From NCBI GenBank assembly GCA_022574555.1, contig JACZRV010000002.1, positions 21,995 to 85,994 of the forward strand: a DNA stretch of 64,000 bases, read 5' to 3'. Positions 1,130 to 47,107 of this stretch are shown one piece after another. The notes under the pieces were generated by a model. It was not told the DNA's origin. It saw only the letters and a list, made by a program, of their open reading frames with translations, and ran no database searches. The position numbers were made by a program, and so were the translations under genes. How positions within the stretch are numbered: the stretch's first letter is position 1; every line of letters starts with the position of its first letter. The DNA comes from SAR324 cluster bacterium. Lineage in GTDB: Bacteria > SAR324 > JACQKK01.

Positions 1130-1436
1130 CGACGCAGGAATCTCCGCTGGCGACCGATGATTGGGTGCCCAACCCGGTCCCGATTTGGCAGGCGCCAGCT
1201 CCCGCTACGCCATCCAGGCCGCCATCGTCCTAGGCGAGCGCCTGGGGATTGCCCCGGACGAGATTCAGGATTTCCTGGGCCGGGAAACGGGGCTGAAATC
1301 CTATGCGGTACTGGGCCGAATCAATCGCTGTAGTGGAACCTACGGATTTCGCGACGATAACCCGCATAAATGGCACAATGATATAAACCTGAATAGGCCA
1401 CGGCCCATTAGACCCTAACTAGGTTGTAGAGGAATT

Positions 1437-1967
1437 ATGAAGCGTCTTCGGCTTTCCATTGCGTTATCCTTTCTTGCAGCGATCACTGCGGTTTCGGCCC
1501 TCGGCGCCGCCGAGACGGTCAAGCCTTTCCGATTGGCGGATCAAGCGGGCCATCCGACCGTCATCGATCGGTCCGATAGATATACGCTGATTACTTTCTA
1601 TCGGGGTGACTGGTGACCCCCTTGCATCGAGCAATTGGTGCAATTGCAAAAATGGCAGTCAGAGTTCAGCGGATTATCGACCCGAGTGGTTGCGATCACC
1701 ACCGACTCTGTCGCCAAGAATGAGCGCATCGCGCAGAGGATTCACATCACCTTTCCCATACTTTCAGATCCGGATGGTTCGACCTTGATGGATCTGGGGA
1801 TGTGGGACGACCGGTGGAAGATTGCATCCTATGGCTATTACCTGCTAGATGAAAATCTCAACGTAGTGAACCATCGGCGTGGTTCCTGGAAACCGACGGA
1901 CCGTGTCAAGGCATTTTTTATGAAAACCATCGCCGATGCCATGGTGAAATCCGCTACCGGCGGGTAG
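1437..1967 (+). CDS. Periplasmic thioredoxin-fold redoxin, peroxiredoxin/AhpC-TSA-like, with an in-frame TGA at 1614-1616 read as selenocysteine in a W-U-P-P-C motif.
   Basis: ATG at 1437 with a signal peptide (MKRLRLSIALSFLAAITAVSALGAAE). The region ITFYRGDW-TGA-PPCIEQLVQLQKW places the TGA exactly where the first Cys of a CxxC redox motif should be. The frame stays open and redoxin-like to 1967 (VVAITTDSV...FPILSDPDGS). Hairpin GCAAT-TGGTGCA-ATTGC at 1631-1647, 15 nt after the TGA. Confidence 0.7.
1631..1647 (+). promoter_or_regulatory. Candidate bacterial SECIS-like hairpin downstream of the UGA at 1614.
   Basis: gcaattggtgcaattgc forms a 5-bp stem with a G/U-containing loop, 15 nt 3' of the in-frame TGA. 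Confidence 0.45.
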
Positions 1968-2049
1968 TTGGATTGACCGCACATTGTGCGGAGCCGCGGA
2001 AATCAAAGGGGCTCATCCCCCGGCTGGCAGCCATCATTGACCATCGCCG

Positions 2050-2673
2050 TTGGATTGCCGGGAAGAGGTCTGCATGTCATTGAGAAAAGTGATCAAGTCC
2101 GGCTTTATCGCCGGTATCCTGGCGGCGCTGGTGTTGCTTGCGTTTCAGCCGCAGCCAGGGTGGGGCATCAAGATTCTCCCGCCAATCAAGATGGCACGCA
2201 GGCCCATGCCGGAGTTCACCAATCAGCATCCGGATGCCTGGGTCAATTCCCGTCCTCTCCAAGTGGCGGACCTCAGGGGAAAGGTAATCCTCATCAAGGT
2301 CTGGACCACCTCGTGAATTAACTGCATTCGCAGCATCCCGTGGGTCCATGGGCTAGAGGAAAAATACGGCGGGCAGGGCCTAATCGTCATTGGGATTCAT
2401 AGCCCCGAGTTTGAGTTCGAAAAGGATCGGGGCCGTGTGGAGCGGTTTGCCCGGAAGTTCAAGATGTCCAATCCCGTCTATATCGACAACGACTTCGCCT
2501 ACTGGAAGGCCCTGAAGAACGAGTACTGGCCGGAATTCTATCTGGTGGACCGCCAGGGCATGATCCGCGGTAAGATCCTCGGCGAAATGCGCGACGAAAC
2601 CGAACGGGCGAAGCGATTCGAATTCGTCCTGAAGGAACTCCTGAAAGAAGAATACCCTGCGGCCACGAAGTAG
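2050..2673 (+). CDS. Membrane-anchored TlpA/DipZ-like thiol:disulfide oxidoreductase with an in-frame TGA at 2314-2316 read as selenocysteine (S-U-I-N-C). The start may be 2074.
   Basis: ORFs 2050-2316 and 2437-2673 are in the same frame and are joined by a single TGA. The sequence KVILIKVWTTS-TGA-INCIRSIPWVHGLEEKYGGQGLIVIGIHSPEF...WPEFYLVDRQG matches the FWTYSCINC motif of DipZ C-terminal / redoxin domains, with Sec replacing the first Cys. There is an N-terminal TM anchor. Confidence 0.7.
2322..2352 (+). promoter_or_regulatory. Candidate SECIS-like hairpins downstream of the UGA at 2314.
   Basis: ctgcattcgcag (2322-2333) is a 4-bp stem. cccgtgggtccatggg (2337-2352) is a 6-bp stem with a G·U pair and a GGUC loop. 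They lie 6 and 21 nt after the TGA. Confidence 0.35.
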
Positions 2674-2840
2674 CGCGCTCCATCTCCTTCCAGCGTCCCG
2701 CCCATCACGCCGGGAACCCCACCTATCCAGCCTATCGCGGCAGCCTTGCAAGAAGCAGCCGTTCACATCCGGCACCACCGTTCACATCTGGAACCACCAT
2801 TCATCGTCCGCGGCCGCACCCCCCGGCGATCGGCCCGCGG

Positions 2841-4276: not shown

Positions 4277-4663
4277 TTGAAACTGAAAAAACATTACTTC
4301 GCCTTATTGGCTTTGGGCACTGTTTGCATCGTGCTGTGGTGTCAGAGCCTGAGCGCCGCAGCTCATCATATCCCGGCCCACGCGGCCGCCGCACCGCACC
4401 ATGAATCCCACCCCACCCCGGTGGCGCCAACCCCGGAGGAAGGCGATTGCCCGATGCCAGATTGCGGCCGAACGTTCACCATCTCGGCCCATTCTGTGAC
4501 GCTGCCCGCCCCGGTGGAGTTAAACAGCAGCGTCAATTTGGAGCTTCGGGCCACGGCGCGCTATTACAGTATTTCACATCACGTCGTTCACAAATTCGCC
4601 CTCCACGAGAACGAACCCCCTAATAGTTCCCTGGTGCAGCAGGCGGTTCTGATCCGCATTTAG
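4277..4663 (+). CDS. Small secreted His-rich protein of unknown function, possibly copper-related.
   Basis: TTG start with a signal peptide. HHIPAHAAAAPHHESHP and a CPMPDC motif. It lies immediately upstream of the multicopper oxidase. Confidence 0.4.
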   Translation: MKLKKHYFALLALGTVCIVLWCQSLSAAAHHIPAHAAAAPHHESHPTPVAPTPEEGDCPMPDCGRTFTISAHSVTLPAPVELNSSVNLELRATARYYSISHHVVHKFALHENEPPNSSLVQQAVLIRI

Positions 4664-4827
4664 CCCCACCAATCTGATCGCGACCAGACCGAGCCCCGGC
4701 CGTCGCACGACCTCGCCTTGCCCCCAAGGTGCGTCTCTGCGGCGCTTCCCGGCGGATTTTCGCGGATCGTGCGCTTGGCCGCTGGTTTCGTTCTGCCGAC
4801 AAAGCCCATTCAATCCGGAGTTAATCG

Positions 4828-6141
4828 ATGAATTGGAATCGACGAGATTTTTTCAAGAAGGCAGCGGCCTTTGCCGGCGTCGCCGCCGCGGGCGCGGCTT
4901 CGCTGAGTAGGCAGGCCCGTGGGCAAGAGCAACACGACGGTGACCACGTTATGCCGGAAATGGAACAGCCCGAAATGGAACACGACGGCATGGCCGGCGC
5001 CGCGATGGCTGGCGGAGAAGATTACCTGGGAGGGCAGGGGAGCATGATGTTCATGCGCGGACACAACATGATCGGGGCGTTCACCGAGCCCCCCGGTGCG
5101 CCTGCCGACGACGAGGTGGACTACCGCACATTCCGCCTCAACTTCGAGATCGCCGAGCACGAATTGTTGCCCGGAATCACGTTCAAGGCGTTCGCGTTCA
5201 ACGGCCAGATCCCAGGGCCGGAGTTCCGGGTGCAGGAAGGCGAGTGGATCAAGGTGGAAGCCACGAATCGCACCGAGGAGATGCATACCATCCACTGGCA
5301 TGGGGTCGATGTGCCCTACACCATGGACGGCGTGCCCATGATTACTCAGGACCCCATCCATCCGGGCGAAACCTTCGTCTATCGTTTCCAGGCCCGGCCG
5401 GCGGGTACCCGGTTCTATCATTGCCATTGGGGCACGCCCCTGCACATGAGCAGCGCCCTTCACGGCGCATTCATCATCGAATCGGACGACGACCCCATCC
5501 GCCGGGACTATCCCTACAAGCGGGATTACACCCTGGTGCTGGAATCGTGGGATATCGATTTCACTCGCCGGGAAATCAACGCCCTGCTGAAAGGGATGAA
5601 ACAAGTGAACCGGCTGATGGCACAGGGCCGGCTCTCTCCGGCGACCCACGGGTTCTTCCGCAACTTTGCGGAATTCAAAAAGGTCGTGGATTCCGGCGAT
5701 TACATCCCACCTTACGTTCGGGGCGCGGCGCCTTTCCGGCGCTGGCAGCCCAACTTCTTCGGCATCAACGGCAAGTGCTATCCGGCAGTGGATCCACGGT
5801 CGCTCTTGAAGATCAAAGAGGGGGAATGGATCCGCGTGCGGATCATCAACGGGGGCATGGGGCTGCATCATCTTCATTTGCACGGCCACCAATTCGTCCA
5901 CGTCGCCCAAGACGGCAATCCCCTGGAACATCCGCTACGCCTCAACACGATCTCGATCTTTCCGGGCACGACCGCGGACATCATGATCTACGGCGACAAT
6001 CCGGGGTTTTGGACCTTCCACGATCACAATACGCTGCACGCACAGAACAACGGCATCTATCCCGGCGGAATGATCACCCTGCTGATTTACGAGGGCATGG
6101 AGTCCCCGCCCTACGTGCCATCTGTCTCGCTGATCCAATAA
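4828..6141 (+). CDS. Tat-secreted multicopper oxidase, probably of the two-domain type.
   Basis: Twin-arginine signal (RRDFFKKAAAFAG). Copper-ligand motifs HWHG, HCHWGTPLHM, HHLHLHGHQF and FHDHNTLH. Met/His-rich N-terminal segment. Confidence 0.85.
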   Translation: MNWNRRDFFKKAAAFAGVAAAGAASLSRQARGQEQHDGDHVMPEMEQPEMEHDGMAGAAMAGGEDYLGGQGSMMFMRGHNMIGAFTEPPGAPADDEVDYRTFRLNFEIAEHELLPGITFKAFAFNGQIPGPEFRVQEGEWIKVEATNRTEEMHTIHWHGVDVPYTMDGVPMITQDPIHPGETFVYRFQARPAGTRFYHCHWGTPLHMSSALHGAFIIESDDDPIRRDYPYKRDYTLVLESWDIDFTRREINALLKGMKQVNRLMAQGRLSPATHGFFRNFAEFKKVVDSGDYIPPYVRGAAPFRRWQPNFFGINGKCYPAVDPRSLLKIKEGEWIRVRIINGGMGLHHLHLHGHQFVHVAQDGNPLEHPLRLNTISIFPGTTADIMIYGDNPGFWTFHDHNTLHAQNNGIYPGGMITLLIYEGMESPPYVPSVSLIQ

Positions 6142-6168
6142 TCAATTCCCGCCCGCCGGAGGACGACG

Positions 6169-7383
6169 ATGAAACGGAAGTTCTTATTTTTACTCGCCGG
6201 GCTCGCTTTACTGGCGTTTCCGGCCCAAGCACTCGAAGTCGACGAGGTCTCCCTGCCGCGCATTCAATTCGAGGGAGAATTCATCAGCACGATCGACTAT
6301 TTCGAACAGCCCGGCGCCAAGACCGGACCCCGGCTCGCTCCGAACACCAATGACAACAACGTTATTTTCGCATTCGACAAACACCTCTGGAACAGTTCAA
6401 TCGTCGCAGGCATCGTCACGCGAATTCGCCTCGAGGACAACGAAGCGCAGCCCAGGCTGTTCGGGTTCCTGGGCGCCCCGCGATATCGCATCAGCGCGGG
6501 AACGATGCGCCTCCGCAACAACCTGGTGCGCTTCCCCACGGCCCGCGAAGAAGATTTGCTGACTTATACGAACGTCCTGAACGGCTCCCTGGGATTCGAG
6601 ATCGAGGACGATCCAGAGCATCTGTTCGGAGACAACATCGTTTTCGAGTGGTTCTTCCGCCCGTCCTTTTGGCGCGCCGCGGTGTTCTCGGAGAATCGGA
6701 CGCAGACTAAAGTGGAAGACTTCGCGTTGAGAAAGGATGCCCCACCCAACACCCTGGGCTTCTCCATTTCCTACGAAGTCCCGGACGCGGTGAAGTACGA
6801 CTATGTGTTGCGCCGCTTGGGATTCATCTATGACGCCCAAGCGTTGGATCGGCGATCCGGCGACGCGGCGCAATTGTCCAGTCTGCTTCTGGGAGGCGTC
6901 CTGGCCCTCAACGACAATCCAGAGTTCCCCTGGGAGGGCGCGTTCCAGGTCATCACGACCGCGGGCCTCGACGACAGAGATAGCAGCGGTAACGAGGTCG
7001 GCGCGCAGGCCGAAGGTGAACTGAGCCGGGAGGCGGCTACCGCCACGGTATTGTCAGTATTTTACGCCAACCGCAAATACCTCCGCACGCGCTGGGATGT
7101 GGCGCTCACTCTCGCGCGGAAATCCTACCCGGATATCTCCGGCGGAGCTCAATGGACGGCCGCGCCCACGTATCGCTATGCCTTGAGTTCGGGCGTGCAC
7201 CTTATCGCGCAGGTGATCTATACCGATTACGGCGATGGCCTCGCCGAAATCATCGGGCGCGACCGCGACTACCGGATTCAGGTGGGCGTCACGATGTTCG
7301 TCGAGCAGGCGGTGAACGACGAGGTGGTCGACTACGACAGCATCCTCGAGATGGAGCAGGGCAGCCTGTTCCGGGGGTATTAG
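6169..7383 (+). CDS. Secreted protein, possibly an outer-membrane beta-barrel, of unknown function within the copper cluster.
   Basis: Signal peptide. Alternating hydrophobic pattern and a C-terminal aromatic residue (…LFRGY). Lies 27 nt downstream of the MCO. Confidence 0.5.
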   Translation: MKRKFLFLLAGLALLAFPAQALEVDEVSLPRIQFEGEFISTIDYFEQPGAKTGPRLAPNTNDNNVIFAFDKHLWNSSIVAGIVTRIRLEDNEAQPRLFGFLGAPRYRISAGTMRLRNNLVRFPTAREEDLLTYTNVLNGSLGFEIEDDPEHLFGDNIVFEWFFRPSFWRAAVFSENRTQTKVEDFALRKDAPPNTLGFSISYEVPDAVKYDYVLRRLGFIYDAQALDRRSGDAAQLSSLLLGGVLALNDNPEFPWEGAFQVITTAGLDDRDSSGNEVGAQAEGELSREAATATVLSVFYANRKYLRTRWDVALTLARKSYPDISGGAQWTAAPTYRYALSSGVHLIAQVIYTDYGDGLAEIIGRDRDYRIQVGVTMFVEQAVNDEVVDYDSILEMEQGSLFRGY

Positions 7384-7479
7384 GGCTTCGATCCCAAGGC
7401 GTTACCGGAAACACAATCGTGGCGGCGGACCGGGGTTTGCGCCCGCCGCCCTCGATCAACCCAATGGAGGATCACGACG

Positions 7480-8292
7480 ATGATTCCGCACATGATAATT
7501 CCGTTACTTGGGGCTTCCCTGGCCCTGGGATTATGGCTGAACCCAATTTCCGTGCAAGCCGAGGAGGGACACGAGCATGAGGCCTCCGCCGCTGCCGAAG
7601 AACACGAGGAGCAGATGGGTGCCGAAGAAGGCGGGCACGGGCACGAGATGAAAGCCGAGGACAGGAAGCACGAGATGCACGAGAAGGAAGCCGGAGGGCA
7701 CGAGCACGAGATGGAAGCCGAGGCCGAGGGGCATGGGCACGATGAAATGCCCGGTCACGACGCCATGGGTGGCGAAGCCCACATGGACGATGATCGCCTG
7801 GAAATAGACGATGGCCTTGTCCGCGCCAAGTGGTGCCGCGAAACGCTGCTCGAAGGAAAGCTGATGCTGGACGAGACGCAAACTCGGCACTGTATGGCCC
7901 TTGTCTCGCGCCACGAGGGCGCCGGAGGGAATGTGATCGTCGTGCGCATGACCGCCAGCGCGGACAACACGGTCAACCGCTTCGATCCGGCACGGGTGGA
8001 GATCCGGCGTGGCGATACCGTGCGCTGGGTAATGGACTCGGGACCCGTTCACAACGCGGTGGCCTACCCCAACCGCATTCCGTACACGTCCCTCCCTTTC
8101 GAGGGTCCGCTGCTGACCAAGGTGGGGGACGCCTGGAGCCAGACCTTCTTCTTTCCAGGAACTTACGAATACCATTGCCACCCCCACGAGGCCCTGGGAA
8201 TGCGCGGCGTCGTGATCGTGGAGCGGGAATCCCGTCCCGACGAGTTCCGCAAGATACGGGGCGGCGGCGAGGCCGCGCATGCGCACCATTGA
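7480..8292 (+). CDS. Blue-copper cupredoxin (plastocyanin/pseudoazurin-like) with a His/Glu/Met-rich N-terminal extension.
   Basis: Signal peptide. Repeated GHEHE/HEM motifs. Type-1 Cu site YEYHCHPHEALGMRGVV. Confidence 0.8.
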   Translation: MIPHMIIPLLGASLALGLWLNPISVQAEEGHEHEASAAAEEHEEQMGAEEGGHGHEMKAEDRKHEMHEKEAGGHEHEMEAEAEGHGHDEMPGHDAMGGEAHMDDDRLEIDDGLVRAKWCRETLLEGKLMLDETQTRHCMALVSRHEGAGGNVIVVRMTASADNTVNRFDPARVEIRRGDTVRWVMDSGPVHNAVAYPNRIPYTSLPFEGPLLTKVGDAWSQTFFFPGTYEYHCHPHEALGMRGVVIVERESRPDEFRKIRGGGEAAHAHH

Positions 8293-17742: not shown

Positions 17743-19746
17743 GTGCAAAAACTGGAACAATTGATTTGGTCCGTCGCACTGCTGTCGTCCGTGGGCCTAC
17801 TGATGGTCTATGCCTATGTGCCGCAATGGCTTCCATGGGACACCAGCGCATTCGATATTTCCATGGACGGTGCGGTCTCCGACTGGCCCTTTTACGGGCG
17901 CGATGCGGGCGGCACCCGCTACTCGCCCCTGGATCAAATCAACCGCGAAAACGTCCTCTTCTTGGAGGAGGCTTGGACCTATCGCACGGGAGACTACGCC
18001 GACGGATCGGACGGCCGGCAAAAAACCACCTTCCAGGCCACACCGATCCTGGTCGACGGCACGCTTTATTTCAGCACTGTTTACGGACGAGTGATCGCGC
18101 TGGATCCGGAAAGCGGCGAAGCGCGTTGGACGTACGATCCGGGGATGGATCGTGACGTGAGCTTTTCCGACCTCGCGTCGCGGGGGGTTGCCACTTGGGT
18201 CGATGACCGGCGCCGCACCGGGGAGCCGTGCCGACGCAGAATATTCGTGGGCACCTACGATGCGCGGCTGATCGCTCTCGACGCGGCGGCGGGCGAGCCT
18301 TGCACCGACTTCGGCGTGGGGGGGCAGGTCGACTTGACCGTGGGCATTCGCAACGTAAGGCCAGGACACTACGGCGTTACTTCTCCGCCGGCCGTTATCG
18401 GCGATCTGGTCGTGGTGGGCTCGGCCATCGGTGACAATGGGGCGGTGGAGATGGCAGACGGCTCCGTCCGAGCCTACGACGCCCGCGATGGCACCCTGCG
18501 ATGGCGCTGGGAACCGGTGCCCCGGCACCCGGCCGACCCGGCCCGCGATACCTGGAAAGGAGATGCCGCTGACAAGACCGGGGCGGCCAACGCCTGGTCC
18601 ATCCTTTCCGTAGATGCCGCCCGGGACCTGGTTTTCGTGCCCACCAGTAGCGCCAGCCCCGATTTCTACGGCGGCGAGCGGTTGGGCAGCAACTCTTACG
18701 CGAATTCGGTGGTGGCGTTGCGCGGATCGACGGGCGAGGTCGTGTGGCACTACCAACTCGTGCACCACGATCTGTGGGATTACGACCTGCCCGCACAGCC
18801 GGTGTTGCTCGATGTCAAGAAGGACGGTGTGGAAATACCGGCGGTGGCCCAGGCCACCAAGATGGGATTTCTCTTCCTGCTCCACCGGGAGACGGGCCAG
18901 CCGATCTTTCCCGTCGAGGAGCGCCCGGTGCCCCAATCCACGGTGCCGGGGGAAGAGACTTGGCCCACCCAACCTTTTCCCACCCACCCTCCGCCGTTGG
19001 CACCCACCAGGCTGACCCCCGACGATGCGTGGGGGCTCACACCGTGGGACCGCGGGTGGTGCCGGGATAAATTGGAGCGGCACCGCAACGAGGGTATCTT
19101 CACGCCGCCGAGCCTGGGGGGCAGCATCCAGTCACCCGGCATTGCCGGTGGGTCCAATTGGGGCGGACTGGCCTTCGAACCCAACCGAGGCGTGGTCGTG
19201 CTCAACATGACTCACATGCCCTATGTGGTGCAATTGATTCCCATCGAGGACTTCGAGGCCGAGCGGGCCCAGGCGCCCAAGGACACCGAATTCGCTCCGC
19301 AAGCGGGCACGCCCTACGGCATGAGCCGCGCGCCTCTGCTTTCGCCCCTGGGTCTGCCTTGCATCCAGCCGCCGTGGGGTACCCTGGCCGCGGTGGATTT
19401 GGGGAGTGGAGAAGTGAAATGGGAGGTGCCCCTGGGCACGATACGGGATATCGCCCCGGTGCCGCTGCCCATCGAATGGGGAACACCGAGTTTGGGCGGC
19501 CCCATCGTGACCGCGGGGGGGCTGATCTTCATCGGCGCAGCCATGGACGACTACCTGCGGGCCTTCGATATCGAAACGGGGGAGGAGCTATGGAAAGCCC
19601 GCCTCCCGGCCGGCGGTCAGGCCACACCGATGACCTACCGGCTCACGCCTTCCAGCCGCCAATTCGTGGTGATCGCTGCCGGCGGGCACGGCAGGCTGGG
19701 CACCACCATCGGCGATCATCTCGTGGCCTTCGCCCTGCCGGAGTGA
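17743..19746 (+). CDS. Membrane-anchored PQQ-dependent dehydrogenase (glucose/quinate dehydrogenase family).
   Basis: N-terminal TM helix. PQQ beta-propeller repeats (W-motifs). Similar to the periplasmic domain of quinoprotein glucose dehydrogenase. Confidence 0.8.
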   Translation: MQKLEQLIWSVALLSSVGLLMVYAYVPQWLPWDTSAFDISMDGAVSDWPFYGRDAGGTRYSPLDQINRENVLFLEEAWTYRTGDYADGSDGRQKTTFQATPILVDGTLYFSTVYGRVIALDPESGEARWTYDPGMDRDVSFSDLASRGVATWVDDRRRTGEPCRRRIFVGTYDARLIALDAAAGEPCTDFGVGGQVDLTVGIRNVRPGHYGVTSPPAVIGDLVVVGSAIGDNGAVEMADGSVRAYDARDGTLRWRWEPVPRHPADPARDTWKGDAADKTGAANAWSILSVDAARDLVFVPTSSASPDFYGGERLGSNSYANSVVALRGSTGEVVWHYQLVHHDLWDYDLPAQPVLLDVKKDGVEIPAVAQATKMGFLFLLHRETGQPIFPVEERPVPQSTVPGEETWPTQPFPTHPPPLAPTRLTPDDAWGLTPWDRGWCRDKLERHRNEGIFTPPSLGGSIQSPGIAGGSNWGGLAFEPNRGVVVLNMTHMPYVVQLIPIEDFEAERAQAPKDTEFAPQAGTPYGMSRAPLLSPLGLPCIQPPWGTLAAVDLGSGEVKWEVPLGTIRDIAPVPLPIEWGTPSLGGPIVTAGGLIFIGAAMDDYLRAFDIETGEELWKARLPAGGQATPMTYRLTPSSRQFVVIAAGGHGRLGTTIGDHLVAFALPE

Positions 19747-25883: not shown

Positions 25884-27596
25884 ATGGAAGACAAACTCCT
25901 CCGGGTCGACATGACGAATCTTTCCGTTGTGGAAGAGCCCTTCCCGGATGATTGGCGCTACCTGGGGGGCAGAGCCCTTTCGGCCAGGATTCTCCTGGAA
26001 GGCCAGGATCCGGCATGCGATCCCCTGGGTGCCGAAGCCTTGCTGGTGTTGGCGCCGGGGATCCTCAGCGGTTCGATGGCGCCCACCTCGGGCCGCATAT
26101 CCATCGGCGCGAAGAGCCCTCTTACGGGCCGCATCAAGGAAGCCAATTCCGGAGGTCAAGCGGGTCAGCACCTGATGCGGCTGGGCTATCGGGCCCTGAT
26201 TGTCCGAGGTAAGCCAACCGACCCGGACCAGCGCTGGGTATTGGAGATCGGCGAAGAAGGTGTGCACCTTATCGAAAAATCGGAGCTCAAGGGCATGCGC
26301 AATTATCCAGCGGCCGAGGCGTTGCTGCAAGGCAAGGACAAGCGCGCCTCAACGGTGATCTGCGGGCCCGCGGGCGAGATGGGTCTGACCGGGGCCACGA
26401 TCGCGCTGACCGATATGGATCATCGCTATCCCACCCGCCACGCGGCCCGCGGGGGGCTCGGTGCGGTGATGGGATCCAAGGGACTCAAGGCCATCACCAT
26501 CGATCCGGGCCGCGCCAAGTTTCGCCGGCCGGCCCGCGAACAGGCGTTCAAGACGCTCTTTCAGACCTTCGCCAAGGAATACCGGGCCGGCAAGCAGCCC
26601 CTGAAAAACGGCACCGCGACGGTCGTGCCCGTGGCCAATATGCTTTCCACCCTGCCCACCCGCAACCGCCGGGCCATGCAGTACGATAAACACGAGGGGC
26701 TGGACGGGGCCAAGATCCTGGCGAACTACGAGACCCGGGGGGGCAAGCAGCACGGATGCATGTCGGGCTGCATCGTCCAATGCTCCAACATTATCAACGA
26801 CCCGGATGGCCACTACATCACGTCGGCCCTGGAATTCGAGACCCTGGGCATGCTGGGCTCCAATTGCGATATCGGCGATCTGGATGTCGTGGCCCGCTTG
26901 GACCGGCTGTGCGACGATCTGGGTCTGGACACAATCGAAACCGGTGGCGCCATTGCCGTGGCCATGGAAGCCGGGGCGCTTTCCTTCGGTGACGCTGGCG
27001 CCATGATCGAATTGCTCGACAAAGAAATCGAAGCGGCCACGCCCTTGGGCCAAGCTGTGGGCAACGGCGTGGTCGCCACCTGCGAAGCCTACGGCGCCAT
27101 GAATCGGGTGCCCGCGATCGGCGGGCAGGGTATCCCGGCGTGGGAACCGCGGACGCTGCCGGTGACGGCCATCACGTATGCGACCAGCGCGATGGGTGCG
27201 GACCACACCGCCGGGCTGGTGACCCGCACCAAAAATCCCGACGCCGCCCAGGCTTCGCAGTTCGCCCAGGTGGTGAACATGGTTTGCGATTCATCGGGGT
27301 TCTGCCAGTTTCAAATTCTGCGTTTGGAAGACCTGCGCCAGTTTTACAACGCCATCTTCGGCGTTGATTGGGACGGCGCGGAGATCTATCATCACGGATT
27401 CGCCGCACTGCAGGACGAATGGGAATTCAACCGGCGCGCCGGCTTCACCCTCGACGATAGCGACCTCCCCGACTGGATGAGGGAGGAAAAAGTACCCAGT
27501 AACGACGCGGTGTATCAAGCCACCCGCGACGTATTGGAGCGCGTCTTTACGGAAAACTACGACGATTCAGCCCTCAAGATCCGCGCCAGCGGCTGA
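25884..27596 (+). CDS. Aldehyde:ferredoxin oxidoreductase family protein (tungsten/molybdopterin, AOR).
   Basis: AOR N-terminal domain (…LTGRIKEANSGGQAG…) and the C-terminal AFOR domain. About 570 aa. Confidence 0.8.
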   Translation: MEDKLLRVDMTNLSVVEEPFPDDWRYLGGRALSARILLEGQDPACDPLGAEALLVLAPGILSGSMAPTSGRISIGAKSPLTGRIKEANSGGQAGQHLMRLGYRALIVRGKPTDPDQRWVLEIGEEGVHLIEKSELKGMRNYPAAEALLQGKDKRASTVICGPAGEMGLTGATIALTDMDHRYPTRHAARGGLGAVMGSKGLKAITIDPGRAKFRRPAREQAFKTLFQTFAKEYRAGKQPLKNGTATVVPVANMLSTLPTRNRRAMQYDKHEGLDGAKILANYETRGGKQHGCMSGCIVQCSNIINDPDGHYITSALEFETLGMLGSNCDIGDLDVVARLDRLCDDLGLDTIETGGAIAVAMEAGALSFGDAGAMIELLDKEIEAATPLGQAVGNGVVATCEAYGAMNRVPAIGGQGIPAWEPRTLPVTAITYATSAMGADHTAGLVTRTKNPDAAQASQFAQVVNMVCDSSGFCQFQILRLEDLRQFYNAIFGVDWDGAEIYHHGFAALQDEWEFNRRAGFTLDDSDLPDWMREEKVPSNDAVYQATRDVLERVFTENYDDSALKIRASG

Positions 27597-43118: not shown

Positions 43119-44329
43119 ACACGATTCCCCTGCTGTGGCAGCTCTACAAGTACATGCCGCCCGAGCACTACGGGGCCCTGGCGGAGTGGCATCTGTGGGG
43201 CGTGTTGGGGTTATTGGGCGTGCTGGCGGCGGTGGGTCTGCATTACCTGATCGGTCACGTTTTCCGATTTTACCGCATCGCCGGCAGGCCCTCATCCTGG
43301 CTGGCTGCGCCCACGTTTCCCGTACTGCTCATCGGTCTGTTCTCATTGCTGGGCACCTATTTGCTCGGCATGGGCGCCCAGGAGCTGGCGTGGCGGGCGC
43401 TCGAGACCGCCGAGTCGATCCCGCAACCTTCGGCTGGGGAGAATGCCCTCGGTCAAGTCTTGCCCGAGAGCACACCCAATCCCCGCATTCCGCATTCCCC
43501 GTTGGAGCCGCTTCCGCCGGCTGAGAGGGTTCCGGCTCCGGCCCCTGGTCCGTCCACTCCTGGTGCCACGCAGCAGCCGCCTGCTGCGGAATTGGCCCCT
43601 TTTAACCCCATCGCGAAGAGCCCTCCCGCACCGCTCACGGCTCAGATAGGCCGCCTGCTGCTCGCGCCCGCATTCGACGCCGCTCATGACGCTGAAGGGG
43701 AGGAGCCCACGCGAGCCCAGATCGCCGCGGCGATCCAAGCCATCGCCTCGGAAGATCTGCGGCTGGCCTACCAGGCCCCATCCCCAGAGCCGGTGCCAGG
43801 GATAGCGCCGGCGGGAGCTGGGCCACCCGAAGCGATACCGGCGGGAGCTAGGCCACCCGCAGCGAACCCGGCCGAGGAGCGGGTCGGATCCCTGCTGTTG
43901 GCCATGGTGCGTCTGTGGCTGACCGACACCGGTCAATCGTGGCCCACCGGTCTGGCGATCGCTGAATCGCGGGGTGCTGCGGATTCCGACGGCCAGGCCC
44001 CTTTCCTGCTGGGCGAATTCGTGCCCGCCCTGATCGGCGAGATCGGCGAGGACGATGCCCTGCCCCGAATCGGCTGGGAGCACGTGGCCGGCACGCGCTT
44101 CGTGGAATACGTGCTGCAGCCCCTGCTGACGGAATACTTCGTCTACTCCGCGGTGACCGCCGCTGCTTTGGTGCTGCTGATCATGGTGGCTTATCTCGCC
44201 GGGTTGATGCGCCTGCGCCGCTGGGCCGACCGCCGCGCCATGACAAAATCAAGGGCCAAATCCAAGGCCACCCTGCCCGCCATACGCACCGAGCCCGCGC
44301 CCCCCGCACAACCACTCAGCGCACCCTGA
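43115..44329 (+). CDS. Proline-rich membrane protein of unknown function.
   Basis: 4-nt overlap with the ppdK stop. Two N-terminal TM helices, a long Pro/Ala-rich segment and a C-terminal TM helix. Confidence 0.5.
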   Translation: MNTIPLLWQLYKYMPPEHYGALAEWHLWGVLGLLGVLAAVGLHYLIGHVFRFYRIAGRPSSWLAAPTFPVLLIGLFSLLGTYLLGMGAQELAWRALETAESIPQPSAGENALGQVLPESTPNPRIPHSPLEPLPPAERVPAPAPGPSTPGATQQPPAAELAPFNPIAKSPPAPLTAQIGRLLLAPAFDAAHDAEGEEPTRAQIAAAIQAIASEDLRLAYQAPSPEPVPGIAPAGAGPPEAIPAGARPPAANPAEERVGSLLLAMVRLWLTDTGQSWPTGLAIAESRGAADSDGQAPFLLGEFVPALIGEIGEDDALPRIGWEHVAGTRFVEYVLQPLLTEYFVYSAVTAAALVLLIMVAYLAGLMRLRRWADRRAMTKSRAKSKATLPAIRTEPAPPAQPLSAP

Positions 44330-44419
44330 CCTGCCCCATGCCCTGCCTTATGTTACACGGAAGGCGGCCCATCCACATAAGGCGCGAGCTCCCAACCTCA
44401 CGAATAACCAGACAAGTTC

Positions 44420-47107
44420 TCAGAACTGATCCATAACCTCATGTAATTTCTCGGACAATGTGGCCGAAACGAAAGGCTTCTGGATGAAGGCGTTGCAACC
44501 GCGATCCATGATTAGCTGTGCCGGTCCATCGAGGCTGTAGCCACTTGAGAGGAGCACCTTTACGTCCGAATTGAGAGCCTTCAGTTTGTCAAATACGTCG
44601 CCACCGCCCATTCCCGGCATAATCACGTCCAGAATAACCAGGTCCACCTTGTCCATGTATTTCTCATAGATTTCAAGGGCATCGTCGCCGGAATTTGCAC
44701 TCAATACGTTGTATCCAAGCTTTTCGAGAGTTCGTCTCATCCCGATAGCTATATCCTCCTCATCATCCACGAAGAGAATTGTGCCCGTACCTTTTCGCTC
44801 CCTAGGCTTTGGCACCTCTTTAACCTGCACGACTTCGCCTTCCGTTGCCGGCAGGTGAATTTCGAATATCGATCCTTCGCCGACATGGCTTTCAACGTTA
44901 ACGATACCTCGGTGATTCTCTATAATTCCGTACGCGGATGCCAGACCCAACCCAGAGTGGCTGGCCATCCCCTTTGTTGTGAAAAACGGCTCGAAAATCC
45001 TGCCTAGGGTATCCTGGTCCATTCCCGCGCCGGTGTCTGTGATTGATAATTTGACGTATTGGCCAGGTGCCAGCTCGAATAAGCTTGCAAAATGATCGTC
45101 AACTATCAAATTCTCAGTTTTAACAGTAAGTTCCCCACCATCCGGCATGGCCTCCGATGCGTTTAAAAGAATGTTCAGTAAAACTTGCTCGATTTGATTT
45201 TGATCGCCCCGAATTTCTCGAAGATGACTTTCAATATTATAAGTTGCCCGAATATTCTTATGCGTCCCCAATACCAAAGTAACCATTGTTTCGACGAGTT
45301 GATTTAGATCAATCGATTTGACCACATATTTACCACCACTTGCGAAACCGAGAAGTTGACCAGTCAGGGCAGCACCTCTCTCGATGCTTTGCTGGACAGC
45401 AATGAGGATTTCATAATTCGGATGGCTGGCATCCATATCGGCCCCGAGAATCGATATACTACCCGAGATGATCTGGAGCAAATTATTGAAGTTGTGGGCA
45501 ATGCCTCCTGCCAGGGTGCCGACAGCTTCCATCTTCTGAGATTGCCGGAGCCGAGCTTCCAATAATTTCATTTCCGTAATATTTATGATTGTTGCCTGAT
45601 CTGCCAGTTGACCATCCCAAAGAATTTTTTGAGAGAATATGCGTATGGTAATTTCATTGCCAAGCCGAGTAAAAGCGTTAACCTCATATTGGCTTGGCGC
45701 CTCCCGCCCTTCTGCCCGGTCTTTCCTGATTTTTAGGAACCTGTCCCGATCGATATCGGCCACATGGTCTAAAACTGACTTTCCAATCATATCTTCAATC
45801 TTTTCATATTCGTACATCATTGCGACGGCGCGATTTGCGAAAATAATACGTCCGTTAATATGCACAATGATTCCTTGCACTGAACCCTCCACCAAATTGC
45901 GGAATCTCCGTTCACTCTCCTGTAGTGCCACTTCTGCCGTTTTGCGCTCCGTGATATCGGAAAAAATGACTTGGACCAATTTTTCGCCGTTCCAGTTGAC
46001 GACGCTAGCCCTTGTTTCCGCCCAAAACTCCTTTCCATCTTTTCTGAGCCAACGAGATTCGTGTTTGGAGGGTGCAATATTATTCTCGATGCGGGCTTTC
46101 CCATATTTTTTTAGCCGATCGATCTCCTCCGGATGAAAGCACGGCGCTATATCACCTTGTGTAATTATTTCTTCAGATGACTCAAAGCCGAACATGGTGG
46201 CCATAGCCTGATTCGCAAAAACAACATGAGTGATGTCGCGCATGATGGCCATTCCTTGGGCCATCTCACCCACCAAACCTCTGAACATCAGCTCGCTGTC
46301 GATGAGTTTTTCTTCGGCAGCTTCTAACCGGGTCACGATCTCGGCGATTCCTATGATTCGATAGGGCACCATGGGCTCCGCCTGGCCCTTCATCTCTACC
46401 GGAGTCAGGGCCTCGGTATCGATGTAGGGGGCGATCAGCCGGTTGGTGTCCGGGCTGACCAAAACGGTGTCGGCCTCGGCATGGCTCGCCAGCCGGGCGC
46501 CGGTGTTGACCGTATCGCCGGTGATGCCGAAGGTGCCGTCGCGGCGGTCCTCGGTGCCGGTGACGATCAGCCCGGTGGCGATGCCGGAATGGAGCCGCAG
46601 TGGCGCGCCGATCTTTTCTTCCACCTCGGGGCTCATGGCCCGCACCATCTCGTGCAGGTCGCGGGCGGCCCGCACGGCGCGCACGGGGTCGTCCTCGTGG
46701 GCGGTGGGGATGCCGAACAGGGCCAGCACCTCGTCTCCCACGAATTGGTTGACGATGCCCCCGTGCCCCTCCACGATGCGCACCGCCTCGGCCTTGATCC
46801 GCCCCACGATGCCCCGCACCTCCTCGGGATCGAGGCGTTCGTTCATGGCCGTGTAGCCGGAGAGGTCGGAAAACAGGACCGTAGCCTGGCGGCGTTCGCC
46901 TTCGGGCGGGTGGGTCGCCTCGGCTGGTGGCGGTTTTGTGATGGTTTCGGCGGACTGGGAGAGATCGTGACCGCACCCGTCGCAGAATGCCGCGTTGGAG
47001 CGGAGAGGGCGCTGACAGTTGGGGCAGGCCAGCACAAGACGGACACCGCATTTGTAGCAGAAGGCGGCATCACCAGCGTTGTCTGATCCGCAGACGGAAC
47101 AATCCAT
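44420..47107 (-). CDS. Multidomain signalling protein: double zinc-ribbon, class III adenylate/guanylate cyclase, PAS x2, histidine kinase (HisKA + HATPase), and receiver domain.
   Basis: CxxC x4 N-terminus; cyclase core (ATVLFSDLSGYT…FVGDEVLALFG); PAS cores; H-box GIAHNFNNLL; the G-box-like segment LGLASAYGIIENHRG; REC domain (ILFVDDEED…VILDVIMPG). Confidence 0.8.
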   Translation of the reverse strand: MDCSVCGSDNAGDAAFCYKCGVRLVLACPNCQRPLRSNAAFCDGCGHDLSQSAETITKPPPAEATHPPEGERRQATVLFSDLSGYTAMNERLDPEEVRGIVGRIKAEAVRIVEGHGGIVNQFVGDEVLALFGIPTAHEDDPVRAVRAARDLHEMVRAMSPEVEEKIGAPLRLHSGIATGLIVTGTEDRRDGTFGITGDTVNTGARLASHAEADTVLVSPDTNRLIAPYIDTEALTPVEMKGQAEPMVPYRIIGIAEIVTRLEAAEEKLIDSELMFRGLVGEMAQGMAIMRDITHVVFANQAMATMFGFESSEEIITQGDIAPCFHPEEIDRLKKYGKARIENNIAPSKHESRWLRKDGKEFWAETRASVVNWNGEKLVQVIFSDITERKTAEVALQESERRFRNLVEGSVQGIIVHINGRIIFANRAVAMMYEYEKIEDMIGKSVLDHVADIDRDRFLKIRKDRAEGREAPSQYEVNAFTRLGNEITIRIFSQKILWDGQLADQATIINITEMKLLEARLRQSQKMEAVGTLAGGIAHNFNNLLQIISGSISILGADMDASHPNYEILIAVQQSIERGAALTGQLLGFASGGKYVVKSIDLNQLVETMVTLVLGTHKNIRATYNIESHLREIRGDQNQIEQVLLNILLNASEAMPDGGELTVKTENLIVDDHFASLFELAPGQYVKLSITDTGAGMDQDTLGRIFEPFFTTKGMASHSGLGLASAYGIIENHRGIVNVESHVGEGSIFEIHLPATEGEVVQVKEVPKPRERKGTGTILFVDDEEDIAIGMRRTLEKLGYNVLSANSGDDALEIYEKYMDKVDLVILDVIMPGMGGGDVFDKLKALNSDVKVLLSSGYSLDGPAQLIMDRGCNAFIQKPFVSATLSEKLHEVMDQF

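What the first reader, a model, noticed from the sequence alone, without database searches (positions are those of the whole stretch)
1437..2673. Tandem pair of secreted thioredoxin-fold oxidoreductases with in-frame UGA at the CxxC position
Two adjacent plus-strand genes each have one in-frame TGA exactly where the N-terminal cysteine of a thioredoxin-fold redox motif belongs. Gene 1 (1437-1967) has TFYRGDW-U-PPC and continues as a peroxiredoxin-like redoxin. Gene 2 (2050-2673) has KVWTTS-U-INCIRS, which matches the FWTYSCINC motif of DipZ / TlpA-like periplasmic reductases. In both cases the frame stays open and the downstream sequence is clearly a continuation of the same fold. Each TGA is followed within 6-21 nt by a small hairpin with G/U in the loop, as expected for bacterial SECIS elements. 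UxxC redoxins are known in prokaryotes. A tandem, exported pair next to a CPBP protease and a VWA protein is less usual. It implies a complete Sec machinery elsewhere in the genome.
Basis: partly seen in the sequence, partly recalled or inferred. Interest (0 to 1): 0.8.

Follow-up and report, generated by a model that had tools for sequence, protein, structure and literature searches.

The report
Two adjacent exported selenocysteine redox proteins
Two neighbouring genes for exported thioredoxin-fold redox proteins each use an in-frame UGA to place selenocysteine where relatives have the first active-site cysteine; the case is sound, but both belong to selenoprotein types already described, and public annotation splits them into fragments.

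Summary
Gene 1 (1437-1967) has one in-frame TGA at 1614-1616 (FYRGDW-U-PPC). Gene 2 (best start ATG 2074, ends 2673) has one at 2314-2316 (VWTTS-U-INC). Both TGAs fall on the first Cys column of the CxxC motif in Cys homologues.

The TGAs are not errors or pseudogene lesions:
- They recur in at least 11 independent assemblies and in relatives down to 41% identity.
- dN/dS is 0.14-0.34 on both sides of each TGA.
- TGA is the normal stop codon of this genome.

Each TGA is followed by a hairpin that largely fits the published bacterial SECIS model. The gene 1 hairpin shows compensatory base changes and an invariant G-U in its loop.

Gene 1 belongs to the known "Prx-like UxxC" selenoprotein type. 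Gene 2 is a stand-alone relative of the DipZ C-terminal / TlpA-type redoxin domain, and UxxC forms of such redoxins are already listed in reviews.

New here:
- The gene 1 then gene 2 order, with both TGAs, is shown in one 52%-identical relative; two more show a gene-2-like start downstream.
- The closest relatives of both genes appear to form clades in which almost all members are TGA-interrupted.
- GenBank annotates the pair as three fragments.

The Sec machinery could not be checked because the window has no sel genes or tRNA-Sec. Verdict: real, new members of a known kind, modest interest.

The parts
1437..1967 (+). Gene 1: exported Prx-like (AhpC/TSA-fold) UxxC selenoprotein, 176 aa including Sec60. 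The only Cys/Sec residues are U60 and C63.
   Evidence: (PF00578 71.2 bits, cut-off 26). GenBank annotates only the C-terminal piece as MCH8841431.1.
1437..1511 (+). Gene 1 N-terminal signal peptide (MKRLRLSIALSFLAAITAVSALGAA). It has a basic n-region and a hydrophobic core; the cleavage site is judged by eye only.
   Evidence: KD(15) 2.27 at residue 8; 3 K/R in the first 8 residues. An equivalent N-terminus is present in the L175 and L094 relatives.
1614..1616 (+). In-frame TGA read as Sec60 of gene 1. It is the first position of U-P-P-C.
   Evidence: (35 TGA against 13 Cys at this column in relatives).
1631..1647 (+). Gene 1 bSECIS upper stem-loop GCAAUUG-GUG-CAAUUGC, with 21 nt between the UGA and the loop. 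A weaker lower stem lies around 1623-1626 / 1654-1657.
   Evidence: 95% of cells paired, 3 pairs with compensatory changes, G25-U26 invariant.
2074..2673 (+). Gene 2: stand-alone DipZ-C/TlpA-like redoxin with UxxC, 199 aa including Sec81. The only Cys/Sec residues are U81 and C84.
   Evidence: PF08534 40.3 bits, cut-off 26.6; C81 and C84 invariant in Cys homologues; DipZ 2HYX, E=1.7e-29. GenBank splits it into MCH8841432.1 and MCH8841433.1.
2074..2148 (+). Gene 2 N-terminal signal peptide or signal-anchor helix (MSLRKVIKSGFIAGILAALVLLAF).
   Evidence: KD(15) 2.69 at residue 10. Cys homologues have N-terminal signal-like segments in the same place.
2314..2316 (+). In-frame TGA read as Sec81 of gene 2. 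It is the first position of U-I-N-C.
2337..2352 (+). Gene 2 bSECIS candidate CCCGUG-GGUC-CAUGGG, with 26 nt between the UGA and the loop.
   Evidence: In L016 the G-U pair becomes G-C through a synonymous CAT>CAC change.

Best explanation
Genes 1 and 2 are a probably co-transcribed pair of exported selenoproteins.

How they are made (inferred mechanism). During translation, a SelB-type factor carrying Sec-tRNA(Sec) binds the stem-loop that lies 21 nt (gene 1) or 26 nt (gene 2) downstream of each UGA. The UGA is then read as selenocysteine instead of stop. The full-length products are exported through N-terminal signal sequences. Gene 2 may stay membrane-anchored.

What they do (inferred by analogy). 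In the cell envelope each acts as a selenol/thiol (U-x-x-C) oxidoreductase on a thioredoxin fold. Sec is the exposed attacking residue and the downstream Cys resolves the selenosulfide.
- Gene 1 is a Prx-like CxxC-type reductase, not a canonical peroxidase.
- Gene 2 is a DipZ-C/TlpA-type reductase. It would be recharged by a CcdA/DsbD/ScsB-type membrane electron transporter encoded elsewhere.
- The conserved tandem suggests the two act in one reductive pathway. The precedent is ScsB->TlpA->PprX in Caulobacter.

Shown here: the TGAs, their Cys alignment, their conservation under purifying selection, the hairpins and their covariation, the fold assignments and the N-terminal export-type sequences.
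Inferred: Sec insertion itself, the electron donor, the order of electron flow and the substrates.
For: 1. Position of the TGAs.
- Each gene has one in-frame TGA.
- In gene 2 it falls on invariant Cys81 of 8 Cys homologues and on the first Cys of DipZ's SCINC motif.
- In gene 1 it falls on the first Cys of FYRGDWCxYC in relatives.

2. Not an error or a decaying gene.
- The TGA is present in 11 independent assemblies.
- It is present in relatives L016, L092, L093, L094 and L175 at 41-56% identity.
- All 35 stops at that column in a JGI metagenome scan are TGA.
- dN/dS is 0.14-0.34 both upstream and downstream of the TGAs, with synonymous sites near saturation, pS 0.66-0.70.

3. TGA is otherwise a stop codon. 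28 of 52 selected ORFs end in TGA, including Pfam-complete genes.

4. SECIS.
- Both hairpins fit the loop, stem and spacing criteria of the published bSECIS model (PMC13188914: 3-9 nt loop, 4-16 bp stem, G in the first two loop positions, 16-37 nt spacing).
- For gene 1: 95% of cells are paired, 3 pairs and 6 cells show two-sided changes, 0/500 shuffles reach the covariation score, and G-U in the loop is invariant.
- Synonymous divergence drops in the 14 codons after each TGA: pS 0.32 against 0.74, and 0.45 against 0.69.

5. Whole clades look truncated.
- The closest relatives of gene 1 among 1.84 billion representatives are about 100-117-aa C-terminal fragments.
- The closest relatives of gene 2's C-terminal part are about 13 clusters of 78-110-aa fragments.

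6. The tandem with both TGAs is kept in L016. Gene-2-like N-termini follow gene 1 in L092 and L093. No + strand terminator lies between the two genes.

7. Both proteins have export-type N-termini and only the U and C residues as redox centres.
Against: - No selA, selB, selD or tRNA-Sec is in the 64-kb window. The rest of the MAG could not be examined, so the Sec-decoding trait of this organism is inferred only.
- Hairpin energies are unremarkable. Fold z-scores are about 0. Among in-frame positions in other genes of the window, 18.5% have a model-fitting hairpin as good as gene 1's and 7.6% have one as good as gene 2's.
- Gene 1's upper hairpin alone is -5.1 kcal/mol, weaker than the -7.5 of the model. 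It passes only when its lower stem is included.
- The gene 1 hairpin overlaps a conserved peptide (QLVxLQ) and gene 2's overlaps IPWVHG. Cys homologues L015 and L039 carry similar hairpins at the same place. Part of the RNA conservation is therefore protein-driven or a fossil.
- For gene 2 only two distinct Sec-type DNA sequences were available, so there is no real covariation test.
- The redox-relay idea rests on gene order and on analogy only. L094 and L175 have gene 1 without gene 2 beside it.
Confidence: 0.88

Rival explanations
1. The TGAs are sequencing or assembly errors, or recent nonsense mutations, and both genes are dead or dying pseudogenes.
For: GenBank and the gene callers treat them as fragments. 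A single MAG contig could carry errors.
Against: The same TGAs occur in 11 independent assemblies from different studies and in relatives at 41-56% identity. dN/dS is 0.14-0.34 downstream of the stops despite near-saturated synonymous sites. Both stops sit exactly on the catalytic Cys column.
Confidence: 0.01
2. The UGAs are read through, but not as selenocysteine. A near-cognate or suppressor tRNA inserts Cys or Trp, or SelB delivers Cys-tRNA(Sec) when selenium is scarce. The products would then be ordinary CxxC (or WxxC) proteins made at low yield.
For: Sec insertion was not shown and the Sec machinery was not seen. Hairpins could also stimulate generic read-through.
Against: The stop at the Cys column is always TGA, never TAA or TAG, in 35/35 relatives. 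The hairpins have the G-U loop and the spacing specific to bSECIS (PMC13188914). The same protein type is a recognised selenoprotein family in which Sec forms outnumber Cys forms in metagenomes (PMC1088965). Keeping a leaky stop at the catalytic residue across clades is hard to explain if Cys were the intended residue.
Confidence: 0.06
3. UGA is reassigned genome-wide (translation table 4 or 25), so these are plain sense codons.
For: None beyond the two in-frame TGAs.
Against: 28 of 52 selected ORFs end in TGA. These include genes whose Pfam matches are complete before that stop, such as the PQQ dehydrogenase, SHMT, AFOR, PPDK, ThiG and G6PD. A scan of all in-frame TGAs found no other convincing read-through candidate. 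G+C is about 60%.
Confidence: 0.005
4. Each gene is truly split: the N-terminal and C-terminal pieces are made separately and assemble into one fold.
For: Gene callers find start codons downstream of each TGA.
Against: The downstream start positions are not conserved: GTG 2437 in the window against 'MIGIHSPEF' starts in relatives. The conserved residues between the TGA and those starts (xxC, IRSIPW, GIHSPEFEFE) would be lost. The break would cut the CxxC motif itself.
Confidence: 0.005

Closest known systems
Prx-like protein / 'Prx-like thiol:disulfide oxidoreductase' selenoprotein family (UxxC; PF00578). Listed in the review PMC13188914 Table 1 (its ref. 12) and in the Sargasso Sea survey PMC1088965.
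   Same: Gene 1 has the AhpC/TSA fold and distant homology to peroxiredoxins. Its thioredoxin-like UxxC replaces the TxxC/TxxU of true Prx: U aligns with the Prx Thr and C63 with the peroxidatic Cys. Sec forms outnumber Cys forms among relatives, 35 against 13, as reported for this family.
   Different: Gene 1's own subfamily (U-P-P-C, QLVQLQKW) is only 30-43% identical to the common FYRGDW-U-PYCNGQL group. It has a signal peptide. It was not found in 185,579 GTDB species representatives and sits in a conserved tandem with a second selenoprotein. Identity with the family's reference sequence WP_010940744.1 was not tested.
[quoted passage not shown]
   Same: Gene 2's best Pfam match is PF08534. 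It is a TlpA/ResA-like thioredoxin fold with UxxC.
   Different: It was not possible to test whether gene 2 is the same subfamily as the listed representatives (HEU0032618.1, MGB1650493.1). No NCBIfam selenoprotein-specific model claims it: WAxxUGC_long scores 17 bits against a cut-off of 300.
C-terminal periplasmic domain of Mycobacterium tuberculosis DipZ (PDB 2HYX, 5CYY).
   Same: This is the closest solved structure, E=1.7e-29 over residues 59-171. The motif (W)xxS-C-I-N-C aligns with S-U-I-N-C.
   Different: DipZ is a fusion with a CcdA-like membrane domain and a further C-terminal domain (PF17991 in many homologues). Many genome homologues are 570-650 aa. Gene 2 is a 199-aa stand-alone domain with its own signal or anchor sequence, and it has Sec instead of Cys.
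ScsB -> TlpA -> PprX envelope peroxide-reduction pathway of Caulobacter crescentus (PMC3322552).
   Same: An exported TlpA-type thioredoxin-like protein is paired with an exported peroxiredoxin-fold protein in a reducing pathway of the cell envelope. That paper also describes PrxL, a Prx-like protein with two Cys and no detectable peroxidase activity.
   Different: This is an analogy only. Gene 1 lacks the PxxxTxxC signature that PprX has. No ScsB, DsbD or CcdA gene is in the window. Both partners here carry Sec. No biochemical data exist.
Bacillus subtilis StoA (PDB 3ERW), an extracytoplasmic CPPC thiol-disulfide reductase.
   Same: Gene 1 shares the W-C-P-P-C active-site motif and an extracytoplasmic location (NCBIfam StoA_CxxC 32 bits).
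   Different: The score is far below the family cut-off of 210 bits. Gene 1 scores better as AhpC/TSA.

Membership tests
Bacterial selenoprotein (SelB/bSECIS-dependent UGA recoding) | In-frame UGA aligned with a conserved (catalytic) Cys in homologues | tested here: met
   Gene 1: (13 Cys homologues with TGC/TGT; 35 with TGA). Gene 2: (C81 invariant; 80/80 genome homologues have Cys; first Cys of DipZ).
Bacterial selenoprotein (SelB/bSECIS-dependent UGA recoding) | TGA-containing orthologues in other organisms, with coding constraint continuing past the TGA | tested here: met
   dN/dS is 0.14-0.34 on both sides of the TGAs.
Bacterial selenoprotein (SelB/bSECIS-dependent UGA recoding) | bSECIS stem-loop by the consensus model: 3-9 nt loop, 4-16 bp stem, G in the first two loop positions, 16-37 nt from the UGA, MFE <= -7.5 kcal/mol (PMC13188914) | tested here: inconclusive
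   Both genes meet the loop, stem and spacing criteria; the energy criterion is marginal for both.
- Gene 1: 7 bp, loop GUG, spacing 21 nt. The upper stem alone is -5.1 kcal/mol; the whole element is about -13. Covariation supports it.
- Gene 2: 6 bp, loop GGUC, spacing 26 nt, -7.4 kcal/mol for the stem-loop alone and -7.9 with a few flanking bases, so the energy is borderline.
- Similar hairpins occur by chance at 8-19% of in-frame positions.
Bacterial selenoprotein (SelB/bSECIS-dependent UGA recoding) | selA, selB, selC (tRNA-Sec) and selD present in the same genome | not testable with these tools
   None are in the 64-kb window or in any fetched locus (SelD probe). The rest of the MAG (GenBank proteins MCH88414xx, locus-tag prefix IID61) could not be retrieved.
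Prx-like UxxC selenoprotein family | AhpC/TSA fold with a thioredoxin-like UxxC in place of the Prx TxxC/TxxU | tested here: met
   PF00578 scores 71.2 bits against a cut-off of 26. FYRGDW-U-PPC aligns with FYPAAM-T-PGC of peroxiredoxin 5EPF.
Canonical peroxiredoxin (BCP/PrxQ type) | PxxxTxxC active-site signature (conserved Pro, Thr and peroxidatic Cys) | tested here: not met
   In the aligned motif Pro is replaced by Arg and Thr by Sec; only the Cys is kept. NCBIfam BCP/PrxQ/PrxU equivalogs score 25-39 bits against cut-offs of 140-270.
SelL-related redox protein (NF040769) | Score above the curated NCBIfam cut-off | tested here: not met
   37.9 bits against a cut-off of 120.
TlpA/ResA/DsbE-type extracytoplasmic thiol-disulfide reductases | Thioredoxin/Redoxin fold with CxxC and an N-terminal signal or membrane anchor | tested here: met
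   PF08534 scores 40.3 bits against a cut-off of 26.6. The U81-x-x-C84 motif is seen. The N-terminal hydrophobic segment has KD 2.69.
TlpA/ResA/DsbE-type extracytoplasmic thiol-disulfide reductases | Orthology to ResA, TlpA or DsbE (curated equivalog or subfamily cut-offs) | tested here: not met
   ResA scores 53.8 against 170, TlpA 36.7 against 230 and DsbE 23.5 against 123. The relationship is at family level only.
DipZ | CcdA-like membrane domain fused to the thioredoxin-like domain, plus the C-terminal PF17991 domain | tested here: not met
   Gene 2 is 199 aa and carries only the redoxin domain. Homologues of 320-350 aa carry PF17991 and many genome homologues are 570-650 aa.

The most novel reading that the evidence does not exclude
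The two genes form a lineage-restricted, all-selenium redox relay in the cell envelope. A membrane-anchored DipZ/TlpA-like U-x-x-C reductase (gene 2) takes electrons from a CcdA/DsbD/ScsB-type transporter. It passes them through selenosulfide exchange to a secreted Prx-like U-x-x-C protein (gene 1), which reduces an envelope substrate. Candidate substrates are peroxide or sulfenic-acid damage, or cysteines of the copper proteins encoded just downstream. On this reading both partners switched from Cys to Sec together and are inherited as a module.
Probability: 0.3. Interest if true: 0.5.

Novelty: new member of a known kind. Interest (0 to 1): 0.3.

Why it matters
- It adds two well-supported, currently mis-annotated selenoproteins to a poorly studied uncultured lineage labelled 'SAR324 cluster bacterium' in GenBank. 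There they appear as one truncated 'redoxin domain-containing protein' and two 'hypothetical proteins'.
- It indicates that the closest relatives of both genes are very likely clades made almost entirely of TGA-interrupted genes, which standard gene callers systematically cut into fragments.
- The conserved tandem offers a concrete, testable pair for asking why selenium is used in the oxidising cell envelope, and whether Sec-Sec partner proteins exchange electrons faster than Cys-Cys ones.
- It does not change what is known about Sec decoding or about thioredoxin-fold enzymes.

Tried and rejected
- **Rfam.** A scan of the whole window at gathering thresholds and a permissive scan of 1400-2700 found no SECIS family match. 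This is expected because bSECIS elements are diverse.
- **Fold energies.** Single-sequence folds against shuffles gave z-scores of about 0, so hairpin energy alone is not evidence. I replaced this test with covariation and a background rate.
- **GTDB scan for gene 1's subfamily.** Nothing was found in the genome representatives, so no named organism and no taxonomy came from it.
- **Neighbours of stand-alone Cys homologues of gene 2.** No recurrent family was found, and no CcdA/DsbD, so gene context gave no clue to function. Gene 1-like neighbours are absent from those 80 loci.
- **SelD probe.** A SelD sequence recalled from memory for E. coli was run against all 175 fetched loci and the window, with no hit.
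- **Walking beyond the window.** Exact-protein look-ups failed.
- **Other read-through candidates.** A scan of all in-frame TGAs in the window found no other credible selenoprotein candidate.
- **L012 set aside.** It is 57% identical and keeps TGA-CCT-ACC-TGT, but its upstream sequence reads as an unrelated protein in another frame and coverage is 3x. It is probably a chimera or a remnant. I used it only in the RNA alignment.
- **JGI metagenome scan.** It returned only distant members at or below 43% identity. These were useful for the Sec/Cys census but not for the close subfamily.
Full report
**1. What is in the sequence**

Reading 1437-1967 and 2050-2673 in frame gives two plus-strand ORFs, each broken by exactly one stop codon.
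- Gene 1: TGA at 1614-1616, context TFYRGDW-*-PPCIEQL.
- Gene 2: TGA at 2314-2316, context KVWTTS-*-INCIRSIPW.

With Cys placed at the stop, both products pass Pfam's curated cut-offs.
- Gene 1: AhpC-TSA 71.2 bits and Redoxin 56.2 bits.
- Gene 2: Redoxin 40.3 bits and AhpC-TSA 31.8 bits.

Gene 1 starts at ATG 1437, preceded by AGAGGA at 1428-1433. The exact 59-aa and 80-aa N-terminal fragments from those starts are on record in public gene calls.

Each protein has a basic and then strongly hydrophobic N-terminus, with KD(15) of 2.27 and 2.69. Neither has any Cys or Sec other than the U-x-x-C pair.

No + strand terminator or promoter-like site lies in the 106-nt gap between the genes, so one transcript is likely.

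**2. Is it real, or an error or pseudogene?**

The window is part of an 87,382-bp contig of a GenBank MAG labelled 'SAR324 cluster bacterium' (proteins MCH88414xx).

The same two TGAs are present in ten other independently assembled ENA and Logan contigs of the same species-level group. The gene 1 TGA is also in a 91%-identical relative, L011.

More distant relatives keep the TGA as well:

| Locus | Identity to gene 1 | Context at the TGA |
|---|---|---|
| L016 | 52-56% | FYRGDW-TGA-PPC |
| L092 | about 50% | FYRGDW-TGA-PPC |
| L093 | about 50% | RGDW-TGA-NPC |
| L094 | 43% | RGDW-TGA-TTC |
| L175 | 41% | RGDW-TGA-NSC |

L016 also carries gene 2 immediately downstream, with WTTT-TGA-INC.

Between the window and L016, synonymous sites are nearly saturated (pS 0.66-0.70). 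Even so, dN/dS is 0.22 downstream of gene 1's TGA, and 0.27 upstream and 0.14 downstream of gene 2's TGA. Against L011, dN/dS is 0.34 upstream and 0.23 downstream. The sequence after each TGA is therefore being translated in that frame.

TGA is otherwise a normal stop codon here. 28 of 52 selected ORFs end with it, including the PQQ dehydrogenase, SHMT, AFOR, PPDK, ThiG and G6PD, whose Pfam matches are complete. No other in-frame TGA in the window looks like read-through.

**3. The TGAs sit on the catalytic Cys column**

Gene 2:
- In an alignment with eight full-length Cys homologues plus L016, both Cys of the CxxC are invariant and the TGA is the first of them.
- The best Cys homologue, P0005 at 58% identity, reads WTTSCINCIRSIPW.
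- All 120 best database homologues and all 80 best GTDB genome homologues have Cys there, mostly as WTYSCINC or WTFxCWNC. One search pattern for the genome scan required Cys, so that census is biased.
- The closest solved structure is the C-terminal domain of M. tuberculosis DipZ (2HYX/5CYY, E=1.7e-29). Its S-C-I-N-C aligns with S-U-I-N-C.

Gene 1:
- A JGI metagenome scan returned 75 distant relatives. At the aligned column 35 have a stop, all of them TGA, and 13 have a Cys followed by xxC, encoded by TGC or TGT.
- Against peroxiredoxin 5EPF, FYRGDW-U-PPC aligns with FYPAAM-T-PGC. Sec therefore takes the place of the Prx threonine, and Cys63 that of the peroxidatic cysteine. The conserved Pro is Arg.
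- This is the published description of the 'Prx-like' selenoprotein family: a thioredoxin-like UXXC instead of TXXU (PMC1088965). Gene 1 is therefore not a canonical peroxidase.

**4. SECIS elements**

The published consensus for bacterial SECIS has four criteria: a 3-9 nt apical loop, a 4-16 bp upper stem, a G in the first two loop positions (usually followed by G or U), and 16-37 nt between the UGA and the loop, with MFE <= -7.5 kcal/mol (PMC13188914).

Gene 1 has GCAAUUG-GUG-CAAUUGC at 1631-1647.
- It has a 7-bp stem, a GUG loop and 21-nt spacing.
- A weaker lower stem brings the whole element to about -13 kcal/mol; the upper stem alone is -5.1.
- Across nine sequences of the subfamily the helix is paired in 95% of cells.
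- Three pairs show two-sided compensatory changes, for example CAA/UUG to CAG/CUC...GAG/CUG in L093.
- G25 and U26 of the loop are invariant.
- 0 of 500 shuffles reach the covariation score, and sliding the partners by 1-3 columns drops pairing to 10-40%.
- The wider FYRGDW-U-PYC group has its own consistent hairpin, ACGGCC-AGUU-GGCCGU, 16 nt after the UGA. Most Cys homologues lack one in that place.

Gene 2 has CCCGUG-GGUC-CAUGGG at 2337-2352.
- It has a 6-bp stem, a GGUC loop, 26-nt spacing and -7.4 kcal/mol.
- In L016 a synonymous CAT>CAC change turns its G-U pair into G-C.

Synonymous divergence is lower in the 14 codons after each TGA than in the rest of the gene: pS 0.32 against 0.74, and 0.45 against 0.69.

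Caveats:
- Fold energies are not unusual (z about 0).
- Hairpins of this quality occur at 18.5% (gene 1) and 7.6% (gene 2) of in-frame positions in other genes of the window.
- The hairpins overlap conserved peptides.
- Cys homologues L015 and L039 have similar hairpins. These could be fossils, or by-products of the protein sequence.
- For gene 2 only two distinct Sec-type DNA sequences were available.
- Rfam has no matching family.

**5. Both genes appear to belong to clades that are mostly or entirely Sec-type**

A full HMMER search of 1.84 billion representative proteins with gene 1's post-TGA part found 49 hits. The six closest (41-55% identity) are about 100-117-aa proteins, and five of the six begin just after the UxxC. 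That is how gene callers truncate selenoprotein genes. I checked five of them in DNA (P0125, P0126, P0127, P0128, P0130) and all have the TGA.

The subfamily was not found in 185,579 GTDB species representatives.

A word-indexed search with gene 2's post-TGA part found about 13 clusters of 78-110-aa fragments at 55-88% identity. Most start at MIGIHSPEFEFEKDR and share the clade signature YWPEFYLVD. They rank ahead of the full-length Cys homologues.

GenBank annotates the window's pair as three pieces: MCH8841431.1 'redoxin domain-containing protein' (113 aa), and two 'hypothetical proteins', MCH8841432.1 and MCH8841433.1.

**6. The tandem**

The order gene 1 then gene 2 is kept in L016 with both TGAs. 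Gene-2-like N-termini, a signal sequence followed by PLPEF, follow gene 1 in L092 and probably in L093.

L094 and L175 have gene 1 without gene 2. L175 has an MsrA gene and a trypsin-like protease beside it.

Cys-type gene 2 homologues in genomes do not have a gene 1-like neighbour, nor any recurrent neighbour family. The pairing is therefore a feature of the Sec clade.

The CPBP (Rce1-like) gene upstream and the VWA gene downstream are present in close relatives. I found nothing that links them functionally to the pair.

**7. How it most likely works**

Shown:
- two exported thioredoxin-fold proteins whose only redox-active residues are U-x-x-C;
- the UGA and a SECIS-like hairpin under selection.

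Inferred from established knowledge of bacterial Sec decoding: SelB with Sec-tRNA(Sec) binds each hairpin and recodes the UGA.

Inferred from the families:
- Sec is the exposed nucleophile of a CxxC-type reductase.
- Gene 2, like TlpA, ResA and DipZ-C, is kept reduced by a CcdA/DsbD/ScsB-type transporter.
- The two proteins may form a relay like ScsB -> TlpA -> PprX in Caulobacter (PMC3322552). That paper also describes a Prx-like two-Cys protein, PrxL, with no detectable peroxidase activity.
- The substrate is unknown. The copper-protein cluster just downstream is a possible but untested link. It comprises a His-rich secreted ORF at 4277-4663, a multicopper oxidase at 4828-6141 and a cupredoxin at 7480-8292.

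**8. What could not be settled**

The window has no tRNA gene and no selA, selB or selD gene. A SelD probe found nothing in any fetched locus. Attempts to reach the rest of the contig failed. The Sec trait of this organism is therefore inferred from the two genes themselves.

The only literature link between SAR324 and selenium in the library lists two SAR324 single-cell genomes as carrying an 'orphan SelD' (PMC5029168). That says little either way.

**9. Comparison with what is known, and verdict**

UxxC Prx-like proteins, UxxC redoxin-family and thiol-disulfide-isomerase-like proteins, and clustering of selenoprotein genes are all on record (PMC1088965; PMC13188914). The pair is thus a new member of known kinds.

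It has some added value: a mostly Sec-type subfamily absent from reference genomes, a Sec clade of the DipZ-like redoxin, a conserved two-selenoprotein tandem, and a clear annotation error in the public record.

Confidence that these are real selenoprotein genes is about 0.88. Confidence in the relay function is much lower, about 0.3. Interest is 0.3.

Noticed in passing
window 2759-2796: A 19-nt unit (CCGTTCACATCCGGCACCA) is repeated twice in tandem, with a partial third copy after it, in the gap between the convergent gene 2 and VWA genes. Its function is unknown.
   Followed up: partly
window 4277-8292: A copper-related cluster lies just downstream of the pair: a small secreted His-rich ORF (4277-4663..AAAHHIPAHAAAAPHHESHP..CPMPDC..), a multicopper oxidase (4828-6141), an unknown 404-aa ORF (6169-7383) and a plastocyanin/azurin-like protein (7480-8292). 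TlpA-type reductases are known to serve copper-protein maturation; this is a possible but untested link.
   Followed up: partly
window 44001-46000: G+C drops to 0.507 against about 0.60 elsewhere, with GC skew of -0.13. The dip lies inside the 895-aa zinc-ribbon / cyclase / PAS / histidine-kinase / receiver gene at 44420-47107. It may be a foreign or fast-evolving gene.
   Followed up: no
window 17743-19746: A full-length PQQ-dependent alcohol/methanol dehydrogenase (PF01011, 814 bits) sits next to SHMT. An aldehyde:ferredoxin oxidoreductase (25884-27596) and an indolepyruvate-type oxidoreductase (48785-52324) are also in the window. This is an unusual mix for a genome labelled SAR324, and with G+C near 60% the taxonomic label may deserve checking.
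   Followed up: no
L012 1-280: An 833-bp, 3x-coverage contig keeps TGA-CCT-ACC-TGT (U-P-T-C) and the downstream gene 1 homologue at 57% identity. Upstream of the TGA the frame reads as an unrelated repeat-like protein in another frame. It is a chimeric assembly or a rearranged remnant.
   Followed up: partly
L076, L079, L084, L087, L091 (FPKAFTGG*T) and L056, L089 (TPG*): Unrelated metagenome loci caught by the scan carry an in-frame stop at the peroxidatic Cys position of true peroxiredoxins. This matches the known TxxU Sec-peroxiredoxin type. The stop codon identity was not checked for these loci.
   Followed up: no
L175 9-485 and 1579-2235: In the 41% relative from GCA_044232495.1, the gene 1 homologue is flanked by a methionine sulfoxide reductase A gene and a trypsin-like protease gene rather than by gene 2. 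This hints at an oxidative-damage-repair context.
   Followed up: no
P0129 (117 aa): A database protein joins a gene 1-like N-terminus (..HTLISFY) directly to the C-terminal part (NLTFPILSD..). It skips the UxxC and about 45 residues. It is either a deletion variant or an assembly artefact.
   Followed up: no
window 1161-1418: An 85-aa ORF between the CPBP gene and gene 1 is called in several assemblies and in GenBank (MCH8841430.1, hypothetical protein). It has no Pfam match.
   Followed up: partly
L015 and L039: Cys-containing homologues (gene 2-like P0005 and a gene 1-like WCPYCKSQLVEL protein) carry hairpins at the same place as the Sec forms: CCGUG-GCUC-CGCGG, and a CCAGCU/AGCUGG stem seen by eye in the L039 sequence. 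These may be fossil SECIS elements left by Sec-to-Cys conversion.
   Followed up: partly
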